Shown: piece after piece, positions 12,240 to 25,413 of the stretch
How the letters are laid out: each line of letters begins with the position of its first letter
How positions within the stretch are numbered: the stretch's first letter is position 1
NCBI GenBank assembly: GCA_951406725.2
Contig: OX597820.1
Span: forward strand, 66,774,001-66,838,000
DNA from: Octopus vulgaris
Taxonomy: Eukaryota
Reading direction: 5' to 3'
Length of the DNA: 64,000 nt
Translations under genes and position numbers: made by a program
Notes under the pieces: model-generated
The model's input: the letters and a program-made list of their open reading frames with translations, nothing else
Database searches by the model: none
What the model was told of the DNA's origin: nothing

Positions 12240-12900
12240 TGTCTCGGGACAAATTTTGATTTCATCTATCTGAGGATCAATTTTGCCTTAGCAGGTTCAT
12301 CTTCCAACAATCTTGGGATCAACTTTGTCCTAAGATCAGCTTTGTCCTCTATGTATCTTGGGGTCACCTTTGCCCTACATCCATCCAAAGATCACATTTG
12401 TCTTCCATTTATCCAGGGATCAATTTTGTCCATCCTAAGATCAGATTTGTCTACCATATATCCAGGGATCAATTTTGTCCTACATCCATCCTAAGATCTG
12501 ATTTGTCTACCATCCATCCAGGGATCAATTTTGTCCTACATCCACCTTAAGATCTGATTTGTCTGCCATCTATCCAGGGATCAATTTTGTCCTACATCCA
12601 TCCTAAGATCTGATTTGTCTACCATCTATCCAGGGATCAATTTTGTCCTACATCCACCCTAAGATCAGATTTGTCTTTCATTTGTCTAGGGATCAACTTT
12701 GTCCTACATCCATCCAAGGATCAGTTTCATCTTCTATCTAGGGATCACCTTTGTTCTACACCAATTCTGAGATCAACTTTGTCATCATACAGCAAGGCAT
12801 CAGCTTTGTCTTCCATCTATGTAGAGATCAACTTTCTCTTCTCTTCATCTAAGTATCAATTTTATCCCTTCGTTGCTTGTGAGATATAACTTTGCTTGAC
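12240..12900 (+). repeat. 28/56-bp minisatellite
   Basis: CAGGGATC recurs at 12463, 12519, 12575 and 12631 (period 56); unit CAGGGATCAATTTTGTCCTACATCCATC + CTAAGATCTGATTTGTCTACCATCTATC; degenerate monomers on both flanks. Confidence 0.9.
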
Positions 12901-21978: not shown

Positions 21979-22519
21979 AGCACTGGTGTCATGTAAAAAG
22001 CATCCAGTACACTCTGTAAAGTGGTTGGCATTAGGAAGGGTATTCAACCACACACACACACATCATCATCCATCATCATCATCATCATGACATATGGCCT
22101 TGTGGTAAGAAGCTCATTTTGAAACCGCATGGTTTTGAGTTCAGTCTCTTTACACAGCACCTTTTGGTGTCTTCCTGTATAGCTTCAGGCTCACACACAC
22201 ACATACGCACACACATAATACACATGAACAACATTCCAAATTTTGTTAACTCCCACCAAAAATTATAAATCTTGATTATTAAATTTGTTATCCTTTCCCC
22301 TTTTATCAAAAAGTTCAGGGTGGAATTTTAGGGGTATCTTTCCATTTGTTTTCTTATTTTCCCTTTGCTCCTTCTCTCCCCTAATTCTTTCAATTATCTT
22401 CAAAAATATTCATTTAAATGTTTTCACAAATGGCAACTATTTCATTCATTTCTTTCTCTTTTGCTTTTGTCTCCATTCAGTCAATCATAAAAGCATTTTC
22501 TGTTTTATCTTGTATCTTT

Positions 22520-22925
22520 TATCTCTTATCTGTTCTAGTTATTTATTTGATTGTGGCCATGCTGGGGCACCACCTTGAAGAATTTTAGTAAATCAAATCA
22601 ACCCCTGTACTTTTTTTTTAAGCCTGGTGCTTATTCCAGCAGTTATCTTAGCCAAACCTTCTAAGTTACAGGAATGGAAACAAACCAACACCAGTTGTCG
22701 GGTGGTGGTTGGAGAACAAACACAGACACACAAACATAGATGTGTATACATATATATACACTACTGGCATCTTTCTGTTTCCATCTACTGAACCCACTGA
22801 CAAGGCTTTGGTCAGCCCAAGGCTATAGTAGAAGATACTTGCCCAAGATGTCACGCAGTGGGACTGAACCCAGAACCATGTGGTTGGGAAGCAAACTTCT
22901 TACCACAAAACTTTATCTGCACCTT
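22520..22925 (-). mobile_element. SINE family A copy, older
   Basis: GATTGTGGCCATGCTGGGGCACC...GCAGTGGGACTGAACCCAGAACCATGTGGTTGGGAAGC. Confidence 0.85.
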
Positions 22926-22960
22926 ATATATATTATATTATATATCACGTTGAACCATTA

Positions 22961-23231
22961 ATCCCTACACATTTTATCTCTCTCCATTTTTTTAATCATA
23001 CTCTCCGTTTTTTTCTTGTTTTTTTCCCTCTTAACCCTTTCTGTTGAAGAGCATAGGCTCGAAACATAAAAAGACTTTTCCATCTTCCTGAGCGTTAAAC
23101 TAATACACCTGCTTGTTGTTCCTACACCTGTCTTCATCTTTTGTTTTCAGTAAATTTAAACTATACATATATGTATTTGTTCCACGTCCTCGCATTGCTG
23201 TGTTTTTTTGTGTTTTCTTGTTAGGATTAAC
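22961..23231 (+). mobile_element. Penelope-like pLTR fragment with degenerate minimal hammerhead motif
   Basis: CCTTT CTGTTGA A GAGC-ATAG-GCTC GAAAC AT A AAAAG (23036-23073) follows the CUGANGA-A-stemII-GAAAC-GUH layout of Penelope minimal type I hammerheads; abuts (TA)n. Confidence 0.5.
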
Positions 23232-23256
23232 TATATATATATATATATATAACATA

Positions 23257-23872
23257 AGGCAATACACCTTGAAACCATGGTCCGTGTGTGGTTTCCGCTT
23301 CATCGGGGAATTACCTCCCTTTGCAGGTTAAAGAACATCGACGTCACCAGATAGGCCCGACACTATCTGGTGACGTCGATGTTCGCCTGGGGCTAAATGC
23401 AACAGTAACACCCCCACCACCCTGCCCTGTCCCTAGCCATATTCAGATGGCTTTAGTCCCTTATGTTATCGAGCAGTTACTGTCTATATCTCTTTTAGAG
23501 ATTTATTATTGCTTTCGAACAGATTTTCGAAATCAGCAAATGTATTTTGCTTGAAAATCTATATATGAATATCCTGCAGAGTGAGAATTCGTCGAGGAAG
23601 CGGAAGCCTACCACACGCCGACGATAGGCAATACACCTTGAAACCATGGTCCGTGTGTGGTTTCCGCTTCATCGGGGAATTACCTCCCTTTGCAGGTTAA
23701 AGGACACCGTGACGGTGTCGGGCCTATCTGGTGACGTCGATGTTCGCCTGGGGCTAAATGCAACAGTAACACCCCCACCACCCTGCCCTGTCCCTAGCCA
23801 TATTCAGATGGCTTTAGTCCCTTATGTTATCGAGCAGTTACTGTCTATATCTCTTTTAGAGATTTATTATTG

Positions 23873-23874
<2 letters not shown>
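23257..23874 (+). repeat. Near-identical direct repeat (23257-23513 and 23626-23874) of a structured ~360-bp unit inserted in (TA)n
   Basis: Copies match except for one internal inversion; CpG-rich; flanked by TA runs on both sides. Confidence 0.9.
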
Positions 23875-23924
<50 letters not shown>

Positions 23925-23979
23925 ATAGATATATATATATATAGATAGATATAGATAGATAGATATATGTATATATTTG

Positions 23980-24121
23980 TTGGTCTTTAAGTTTCTGTCT
24001 AGCAAACCCACTCAGAAGGCTTTGGTCAGCTTAAGGCTATAATAGAAAACAAGGTGCCATGCAGTGAAACTGAACCTGGAACTATGTGGTTGAGAAGAAA
24101 GCTTCTTACCATACAACCACT
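23980..24121 (-). mobile_element. SINE A head fragment
   Basis: AAGGCTTTGGTCAGC...AAGGTGCCATGCAGTGAAACTGAACCTGG. Confidence 0.65.
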
Positions 24122-24297
24122 GACTTTTAGCTTTAAATTTACCATAGAGCTTCAAAAGCCTCTTCATGAATCAATCTTTTTAGTTATCTATTTGTCTTTC
24201 CTCTATTCATCCATCTGTATGCCTTCCTGTCTGTTTCTATTTTTGTCAGTCTGCCTATTTATCTATACGCCTATCTGTCTCTTTGTATCTCTCTCTC

Positions 24298-24355
<58 letters not shown>

Positions 24356-24449
24356 TTGTATAGAGTAGGAAAAAAATTATAGAAATCTTTTTTTCTACCA
24401 GTGACCTAGTATGCATACAAAGTCAATAGACATATTTTTCATATTTATA

Positions 24450-24682
24450 CACAAAGAGGCAAGCCATTAGCAGGTGGCCTAACATACTAGAAAGAACAGT
24501 CAAGAAGTCCAAACCACAGTTAAGAGCAATTTCGAAGGGAATGAAAAATAAAAACATTTACCATGTTTTACAGCCAGACCTCAGGTTTCGAACTTTAATT
24601 AGCAAATAAAATAATTTATCTGTGGTTTGGACTTTTTGACTGTTCTTTCTAGTAGGTTAGGCAACCTGCTTGCCTCTTTGTG
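24450..24682. mobile_element. Fold-back/MITE-like element with ~70-bp inverted arms
   Basis: TA|CACAAAGAGGCAAG...CTAGAAAGAACAGTCAAGAAGTCCAAACCACAG is inverted against CTGTGGTTTGGACTTTTTGACTGTTCTTTCTAG...CTTGCCTCTTTGTG|TA. Confidence 0.7.
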
Positions 24683-24799
24683 TATAGGCTTGCATCTGTG
24701 TATAAATATACACTAATTTATATATACATATATACATACATATATACATATATTGCATGTGCTAGATGACAGTCTGTCTTTGTTTTCTGCTTCTCTCTC

Positions 24800-25413
24800 T
24801 TCTTTAATCTATCTACCTAGCTAGCTGTATCTAATTATATACCTGTCTATTTAGTAGTGTCTATATATCTATCATTATCTGTATAGCTACTGATTTATCT
24901 ACCTGTCTGGTTGTTTGTTTGTGTGTATATATTTATCTATGTCTATCTACCCGTCTTTCCATCTCTATATCTATCTGTCTGGCTCTATGTCTATCGGTCT
25001 GAATATTAGTCTGTCTGTTTCTATAACTGTCTATCTCACTCTCTATCCATCCATCCATCCATTCATCTACACATCTATGTACATATTTATCATTCAGTCT
25101 ATCTATCTATCTGTCTATCTGTCTGTCTGTCTATCTATCTGTCTCTTTTTCTTTTGTTCCTTTTCTTCTTTTTTTTATTTTTTTTTTTATTTTTTGTTCT
25201 TTTTTTCCCTTTTACGATCCCTTTTGATCGAAAACCTCCGCCACCTTTTTTTTTTTGTTTCTTTTGTTTTTTGTTTTTTTCATTCCCCAAAAGAAAAGCT
25301 CTACCTTGTAACTTGTCCCATCTGTGTGCAGCCCTGTGTGGCCAATAAAGAAACTTATTTATCTATCTGTCTATCTATCCGTCTCTCTGTCTAGCTATCA
25401 GTTGATCTGTCTG

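What the first reader, a model, noticed from the sequence alone, without database searches (positions are those of the whole stretch)
23257..23874. Young, highly structured ~360-nt unit integrated as a head-to-tail 1.7-mer in (TA)n: candidate retrozyme-like or circular-RNA-derived mobile element
Seen: the unit (23514-23874) is preceded by a partial copy starting mid-unit, is CpG-rich in CpG-poor DNA, has no credible ORF and no tRNA head, and is flanked by TA runs. Much of it is self-complementary: a long rod at 23573-23696 (CCTGCAGAGTGAGAATTCGTCGAGGAAGCGGAAGCC.. pairing with ..GGTTTCCGCTTCATCGGGGAATTACCTCCCTTTGCAGG), plus AGATTTTC/GAAAATCT, GACACCG/CGGTGTC, GGGGCTAAA/TTTAGTCCC, AGCCAT/ATGGCT and ATCTCT/AGAGAT. 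Several mismatches in these stems are G-U wobbles on the + strand, which suggests selection on an RNA fold. The minus strand has a hammerhead-core-like CCGATGA-AGCG-GAAAC with stem ACCA/TGGT, but helix I is imperfect. Known: metazoan non-LTR retrozymes and Penelope pLTRs occur as partial tandem repeats of a few hundred bp. Inference: a non-autonomous RNA element copied from a circular or multimeric template.
Basis: partly seen in the sequence, partly recalled or inferred. Interest (0 to 1): 0.75.

Follow-up and report, generated by a model that had tools for sequence, protein, structure and literature searches.

The report
Penelope-pasted hammerhead retrozyme copy
This is one young copy of a 360-base non-coding repeat that carries a predicted self-cutting hammerhead RNA motif and sits in TA microsatellites across this animal genome; the kind (a retrozyme) is known, and the ends of its copies suggest that a Penelope-type jumping-gene enzyme likely copies one small RNA circle from two fixed start points.

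Summary
Real, and a new member of a known class (animal non-LTR retrozymes). The 361-nt unit (23514-23874) holds a type I hammerhead on the + strand (23612-23657, predicted cut 23651/23652). The core occurs 1,221 times in the genome. In 30 diverged relatives the core is conserved and all 9 variable helix pairs show compensatory change. Copies are not circularly permuted. They have variable 5' truncations and two fixed 3' ends 44 nt apart, followed by (TA)n. Of 39 two-armed insertions, 37 have one long and one short end and none has two of a kind. Young Neptune-type Penelope elements in this genome do the same (2 of 2). Units within an insertion mostly share one haplotype across both arms, and arms show no excess of stops at the cut site, which favours a circular monomer template. 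Cleavage, RNA, circles and the exact partner are unshown; the core carries U4C. The scan already noted this pattern many times in this genome, probably for this same family.

The parts
23232..23250 (.). Left (TA)n target tract
23249..23259 (-). 11-nt inverted second arm (unit positions 307-317), ending at the family's short 3' end; 3-nt overlap (AGG) with the start of the + arm
   Evidence: same end in the two-armed insertions
23257..23513 (+). 5'-truncated unit (positions 113-361). Holds the 3' half of the hammerhead (GAAAC-CATG-GTC at 23271-23282, helix I 3' strand) but not the CCGACGA core
23333..23362 (-). Template-switch lesion: unit positions 189-210 are replaced by the reverse complement of 203-232, making a perfect hairpin; net +8 nt; not seen in the other copies listed
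23514..23874 (+). Full 361-nt non-coding unit, 98-99% identical to the best genomic copies
23521..23560 (+). 5' two-part hairpin, conserved with compensatory changes
   Evidence: helices 1-2
23573..23696 (+). Long rod that extends helix I and carries the hammerhead at its tip
   Evidence: helices 3-5
23612..23657 (+). Type I hammerhead: helix I CACACG/CGTGTG, core CCGACGA (U4C), helix II AGG/CCT over a U-U pair with a 7-nt loop, GAAAC, palindromic helix III ACCATGGT, GTC triplet; predicted cut between 23651 and 23652
23703..23719 (+). GACACCG/CGGTGTC hairpin, conserved
   Evidence: helix 6
23722..23755 (+). Two-part stem-loop, conserved with compensatory changes
   Evidence: helices 7-8
23797..23814 (+). 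AGCCAT/ATGGCT hairpin just upstream of the short 3' end
   Evidence: helix 9
23831..23874 (+). 44-nt tail between the short fixed 3' end (23830, unit 317) and the long fixed 3' end (23874, unit 361); inferred to lie between two reverse-transcription start sites
   Evidence: PMC11167929
23875..23921 (.). Right (TA)n target tract

Best explanation
This is one young insertion of a non-coding 360-nt repeat with a conserved type I hammerhead motif on the + strand (an animal non-LTR retrozyme), likely pasted into (TA)n by a Neptune-type Penelope-like enzyme that likely copied a circular RNA monomer. Shown: copy number, conserved and covarying hammerhead and fold, (TA)n target, two fixed 3' ends 44 nt apart, back-to-back arms with one long and one short end, and mostly one haplotype per insertion. 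Inferred cycle: multi-unit arrays are transcribed on the + strand; hammerheads, probably paired through the palindromic helix III, cut out monomers; a host ligase closes them (known for other retrozymes, PMC7229834); the Neptune RT/GIY-YIG protein nicks both strands of a TA tract and extends each nick on the same RNA, one from position 361 and one from 317, going round as many times as it lasts; the two 5'-truncated cDNAs are then joined. This window's copy has one whole hammerhead and a lesion in the partial unit, so it is probably a dead-end daughter, not a source.
For: Copies: 402 exact matches to the 34-nt core and 1,221 allowing any N7 and either U4 or C4, control 0. The generic core pattern gives 3,754 against 186 for the reversed control. 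Hammerhead: C3, G5, A6, G8, A9, GAAAC and GUC are invariant in 30 of 30 aligned units of mean column identity 58%. These positions were part of the pattern that found the relatives, so the independent evidence is the helices: 93.6% of cells paired, 9 of 9 variable pairs with two-sided change, covariation 0.461 against 0.250 shuffled (0 of 500) and at most 0.197 when slid. Loop III is a strict palindrome in 18 of 30 and with G-U in 26 of 30. Rest of the fold: 23 of 53 pairs with two-sided change, 0 of 500 shuffles. Ends: in 38 insertions, 31 were two-armed, 29 of them long + short; 63 of 69 3' ends are followed by (TA)4. In 13 sister-subfamily loci, 8 of 8 two-armed insertions are long + short. 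Neptune-type elements (RT + C-terminal GIY-YIG; CX4CxxC linker) are young here (99.5% and 99.7% protein identity between copies), end in (TA)n at two fixed sites, and 2 of 2 two-armed copies are long + short. Template: in 23 arrays (112 units) 36 variants are fixed across all units, 14 are shared by a subset and 108 are singletons. Variants seen fixed in only one sampled array span both arms (L164; L173, 8 of 8 near-full units; L178, 4 of 4 pieces). Arms reach 9-11 units. Truncations show no clear excess at the cut site: 11 hits (9 truncations) against 8 and 4 in two control windows.
Against: No cleavage, RNA or circle was shown. All 100 core matches listed carry U4C, which PMC3088659 says considerably lowers activity in vitro. 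The active-like fold lies 8.8 kcal/mol above the monomer MFE. In the Xenopus preprint only 1 of 9 predicted retrozymes cut in vitro. Rfam gave no hammerhead hit at E up to 10. No sampled Neptune shares sequence with the unit (best E 0.96 against 8 element stretches), so the partner is inferred from footprint only; just 30 of 150 scored GIY-YIG matches out of 6,136 candidates came back as loci, plus a few more fetched by place. One array of 23 (L151) is a mosaic of haplotypes, which a single monomer circle does not explain. The loci were chosen by best hit or by being arrays, so architecture counts are not a random sample. Singletons may include assembly errors.
Confidence: 0.72

Rival explanations
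1. Same element and same Penelope-type enzyme, but the template is an uncut linear multimeric transcript of an existing array; the hammerhead is slow or idle and no circle is needed.
For: U4C core; hammerhead mutants did not block insertion by the anole Penelope in vitro, and uncut RNA was its main substrate (PMC11167929); no stop at the cut site fits uncut RNA too; mosaic array L151.
Against: Copying a linear multimer with 5' truncation can only shorten arrays, yet arms of 9-11 units persist. New variants are fixed across all units of both arms, which needs a one-unit bottleneck. Hammerhead helices stay under pairing constraint across subfamilies about 60-65% identical.
Confidence: 0.17
2. 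The enzyme copies a cut linear monomer repeatedly by seamless template jumping rather than rolling round a circle.
For: This would also give one haplotype per insertion. Three listed arms stop at unit positions 138-140, and 4 of 9 truncations fit a stop at the cut end with 1-2 nt of microhomology.
Against: 1,221 cores span the site intact, and truncations there (9) are not clearly above a control window (8 hits). Junction errors at the cut site are rare in the arrays listed.
Confidence: 0.06
3. The unit is a detached pseudo-LTR or 3' end of an autonomous Penelope element not sampled here, or a satellite amplified locally after insertion.
For: 24 of 57 Xenopus retrozyme families match TEs, mostly Penelope ends; few of the genome's Penelope lineages were inspected.
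Against: In 51 insertions no arm runs into a Neptune ORF; the only protein hit is a separate 54-aa fragment several hundred bases outside one array. Arrays are dispersed, end at the same two sites in both arms and are 97-99% identical, which local crossing-over does not produce.
Confidence: 0.05

Closest known systems
Animal non-LTR retrozymes (Cervera and de la Pena 2020, PMC7229834, parts 2-4 of 6 read; Li, Clavereau and Pollet 2026, 10.64898/2026.07.22.740005, parts 1-3 of 5 read)
   Same: Non-coding 330-390-nt tandem units with one canonical type I hammerhead each, GC under 50% (46.5%), strong self-pairing, co-occurrence with Penelope elements. The palindromic helix III resembles axolotl HHR_Amex1 and the U-U pair under helix II resembles HHR_Amex2.
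   Different: RNA, circles and cleavage were shown there and not here. The parts I read do not describe back-to-back arms, two fixed 3' ends or (TA)n targeting for retrozymes. The core is U4C. No cephalopod case appeared in my searches; that this genome is a cephalopod is my inference and the earlier scan notes' label, not a call result. Supplements were not read and may bear on this.
EN+ Penelope-like elements, Neptune type (PMC8557442, passages read; PMC11167929, parts 1-2 of 4 read; PMC4209133, passages read)
   Same: Partial tandems, inverted 5'-truncated arm, optional tail at one end, microsatellite targets; the tail lies between two internal RT start sites in the anole element.
   Different: No ORF; tail 44 nt against the 30-40 bp quoted; canonical hammerhead with long helices rather than a minimal one; no sequence match to the Neptunes sampled here.
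Viroid-like RNAs with ribozymes in both polarities (recalled, not from a call)
   Same: Small, rod-rich, hammerhead-bearing, presumed circular.
   Different: The minus-strand core is not conserved and lacks helix I; the unit is genome-integrated with a retrotransposon footprint.

Membership tests
Animal non-LTR retrozyme | Tandem repeats of a 150-450 bp unit | tested here: met
   359-361-bp units, arms up to 11 units
Animal non-LTR retrozyme | Type I hammerhead motif in each unit | tested here: met
   U4C variant; this window's partial unit lacks the core
Animal non-LTR retrozyme | Non-coding, no flanking LTR pair | tested here: met
   No credible ORF; arrays end in (TA)n. PBS and PPT were not searched for.
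Animal non-LTR retrozyme | Stable, highly self-paired predicted fold | tested here: met
   z -6.0; 63% paired as a circle; covariation
Animal non-LTR retrozyme | Self-cleavage of the transcript | not testable with these tools
   Needs in vitro transcription
Animal non-LTR retrozyme | Expressed as linear and circular monomer RNA | tested here: inconclusive
   Only assembled contigs were available, which cannot show strand, level or circularity (see Tried and rejected)
Animal non-LTR retrozyme | Co-existence with autonomous Penelope elements | tested here: met
   Intact 781-aa RT-GIY-YIG frames in many copies
Penelope-like element (autonomous) | RT plus GIY-YIG ORF | tested here: not met
Penelope-like element (insertion footprint) | Partial tandem, inverted truncated arm, tail at one end, microsatellite target | tested here: met
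   same in local Neptunes
Penelope-like element (pLTR derivative) | Sequence homology to the pLTR of an autonomous element | tested here: inconclusive
   None against 8 sampled Neptune stretches; most lineages unsampled
Ambisense viroid-like RNA | Conserved ribozyme in both polarities | tested here: not met
   Minus-strand core in 1 of 30 aligned units, 2-bp helix I
tRNA-derived SINE | tRNA head with Pol III A and B boxes | tested here: not met
   No tRNA family hit; no box match by regex; ARAGORN not run

The most novel reading that the evidence does not exclude
Each insertion records one Neptune enzyme complex priming from both strands of a cut TA tract on the same 360-nt RNA circle, one strand always from position 361 and the other always from 317, and rolling round it up to 11 times. 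The one-long-one-short rule (37 of 39, never two of a kind) plus one haplotype per insertion would be genomic proof of the proposed retrozyme cycle, and would give a 360-nt minimal substrate for working out how Penelope elements form tails and inverted arms.
Probability: 0.55. Interest if true: 0.6.

Novelty: new member of a known kind. Interest (0 to 1): 0.4.

Why it matters
Penelope elements were proposed as the movers of animal retrozymes from co-occurrence and pLTR similarity (PMC7229834; 10.64898/2026.07.22.740005). This family adds the insertion footprint, with a strict end rule and haplotype evidence for a one-unit template, and the genome holds young intact Neptune frames to test it with. 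That makes an open step of Penelope transposition testable with a short RNA. The class itself is known, and the scan has reported the same pattern many times in this genome, so this copy adds confirmation more than surprise.

Tried and rejected
Rfam scan of 22000-25000 at E up to 10: 24 matches, none a hammerhead, twister or HDV model, all below gathering score. Minus-strand hammerhead and an ambisense reading: rejected. Sequencing runs: no RNA holder listed. Contigs of four coded runs were laid; three held one contig of 359-391 nt over about one unit, which tandem DNA and a circle would both give, so I draw nothing on expression from it. Search for an autonomous partner with shared sequence: 30 GIY-YIG loci, 12 and 8 larger stretches and 70 hammerhead loci. 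Apparent links at L064, L103/L085, L114, L115, L143 and L170 were separate insertions with (TA)n or other DNA between them. Excess of 5' truncations at the cut site as a trace of cleavage in vivo: not found (2 of 69 within positions 134-143, of which nine starts at position 1 probably reflect short pieces missed by BLAST; 11 against 8 and 4 hits; the last control covers only the C7 subfamily, about a third of the family). Look-up of earlier findings by sequence returned nothing. Rows left out of alignments: of 67 candidate hammerhead segments, 29 went into A1 with the window unit and 19 into A2; I left out near-duplicates, short pieces and low-scoring unrelated motifs.

Full report
Observation. 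The window holds a full 361-nt unit at 23514-23874 preceded by unit positions 113-361 at 23257-23513, between two (TA)n tracts. The unit is CpG-rich (o/e 0.92 against 0.35), has no credible ORF and folds far better than shuffles on both strands, best on + (z -6.0 and -4.1). GGGGCTAAA/TTTAGTCCC does not appear in the single or comparative folds. Two features were missed: an 11-nt inverted stub at 23249-23259 and a 30-nt inverted template switch at 23333-23362.

The ribozyme. A scan of both strands found two core-like motifs. The + strand one is a complete type I hammerhead: helix I CACACG/CGTGTG, core CCGACGA, helix II AGG/CCT over a U-U pair, GAAAC, a two-pair helix III closed by the palindromic loop CATG, and GTC. 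PMC4209133 describes this layout as the canonical metazoan form that cuts as a dimer (passage). The generic pattern occurs 3,754 times in the genome against 186 for the control and led to several diverged subfamilies about 60-65% identical to the unit. In 30 aligned units the core letters are invariant, partly by construction of the search. The helices were not in the pattern: 9 of 9 variable pairs show two-sided change and the covariation score beats 500 of 500 shuffles and all slid controls. These controls do not correct for relatedness. Loop III is palindromic in 18 of 30, or 26 of 30 with G-U. Three further invariant letters, T96, A122 and T145, lie in the helix I bulge and loop II, where tertiary contacts are expected (role recalled, not tested). 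The other hairpins and the rod also covary (23 of 53 pairs; that structure was derived from folds of the same sequences). The minus-strand motif is found only in the window's own family and is a by-product of the rod's symmetry.

The family. The exact 34-nt core occurs 402 times and 1,221 times with the sister subfamily. The best copies are 98-99% identical and the sister subfamily about 97%. All 100 listed cores have C at position 4, and no listed array mixes the two N7 letters. In 38 insertions, 31 had two back-to-back arms, and 29 of these had one arm ending near unit position 361 and the other near 317; 63 of 69 3' ends run into (TA)4. In 13 further loci of the sister subfamily, 8 of 8 two-armed insertions follow the rule. 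None of the 39 has two long or two short ends; the two exceptions have one odd end. The window copy, counted there as one-armed, fits too through its 11-nt stub. 5' ends are scattered over the unit.

The mover. Partial tandems, an inverted truncated arm, a tail at one end and microsatellite targets are the described footprint of Penelope-like elements (PMC8557442, passages). In the anole element the tail is the stretch between two internal RT start sites, and both DNA strands are cut and extended (PMC11167929). This genome has many GIY-YIG frames, including intact 781-aa RT-GIY-YIG frames with a Neptune-type cysteine linker. Copies are up to 99.5-99.7% identical in protein. They end in (TA)n at two fixed sites, and the 2 two-armed copies found among 30 loci are long + short. 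No sampled Neptune shares sequence with the unit, and every apparent link was a separate insertion nearby, mostly at a shared TA tract. The partner is therefore inferred by footprint.

The template. In 23 arrays of three or more near-full units, 36 substitutions are fixed in all units of an array, 14 are shared by some and 108 are singletons. Variants seen fixed in a single sampled array span both arms. Arms reach 9-11 units. A cut linear monomer would stop at position 139; truncations there are not in clear excess. A circle explains all three facts. An uncut linear multimer explains the last but not easily the fixing of new variants or the upkeep of long arrays. One array (L151) is a haplotype mosaic and argues that multimeric or several templates are sometimes used.

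What is not shown. No cleavage, transcript or circle. U4C lowers hammerhead activity in vitro but supports viroid infectivity (PMC3088659, passage). The active-like fold costs 8.8 kcal/mol in the monomer, while the helix III duplex between two units is worth -12.6. Only 1 of 9 predicted Xenopus retrozymes cut in vitro. This locus has one whole hammerhead and is unlikely to release a monomer by itself (inference).

Comparison and novelty. It meets every sequence-testable feature of animal non-LTR retrozymes and fails membership of autonomous Penelope elements, tRNA SINEs and ambisense viroid-like RNAs. Searches for hammerhead with Penelope, retrozyme or octopus, hammerhead with cephalopod and retrozyme with inverted, tail and Neptune gave no paper describing this family or this footprint for retrozymes; the library lacks most subscription papers and I read no supplements. 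The scan's own notes list 39 findings of this kind in at least 17 genomes and many in this genome, including 359-360-nt families that may be this one. My reading was set before those look-ups; one note prompted the test.

Verdict. New member of a known kind, interest 0.4. The end rule and the haplotype pattern are its useful contribution.

Noticed in passing
window 22770-22911 and 23984-24117: Two copies, about 81% identical, of a short SINE-like repeat lie on either side of the element, 1.2 kb apart; unrelated to the unit.
   Followed up: no
window 12328-12840: Tandem array of a 28/56-bp unit, about 8 copies of the 56-mer.
   Followed up: no
window 23333-23362: The inverted template switch needs a minus-strand template covering both sides of the switch point: either cDNA of the previous round or the opposite strand at a replication fork. 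Not decidable here.
   Followed up: partly
L151 (G000:C14:72706492-72710748): 12-unit insertion that is a mosaic of family haplotypes, unlike most other arrays.
   Followed up: partly
L061, L109, L114, L104, L069 3' UTRs: Several Neptune lineages carry minimal hammerhead-like motifs with altered cores near their 3' ends, some with a U3-A8 pair and a short palindromic helix III.
   Followed up: partly
L064, L103, L114, L115, L170: Retrozyme relatives and Neptune copies sit next to each other across one TA tract more often than I would expect; a Neptune frame lay within the 7-8.5 kb fetched at 5 of 40 hammerhead loci. No formal null was computed.
   Followed up: partly
L100, L136, L129, L121, L087, L148: At least six further subfamilies of the same retrozyme superfamily (periods 342-357 where tandem), with different palindromic loop III sequences.
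   Followed up: partly
L082, L137, L138-L141, L147: Hammerhead motifs of other families, not aligned with the unit and not assigned to any element.
   Followed up: no
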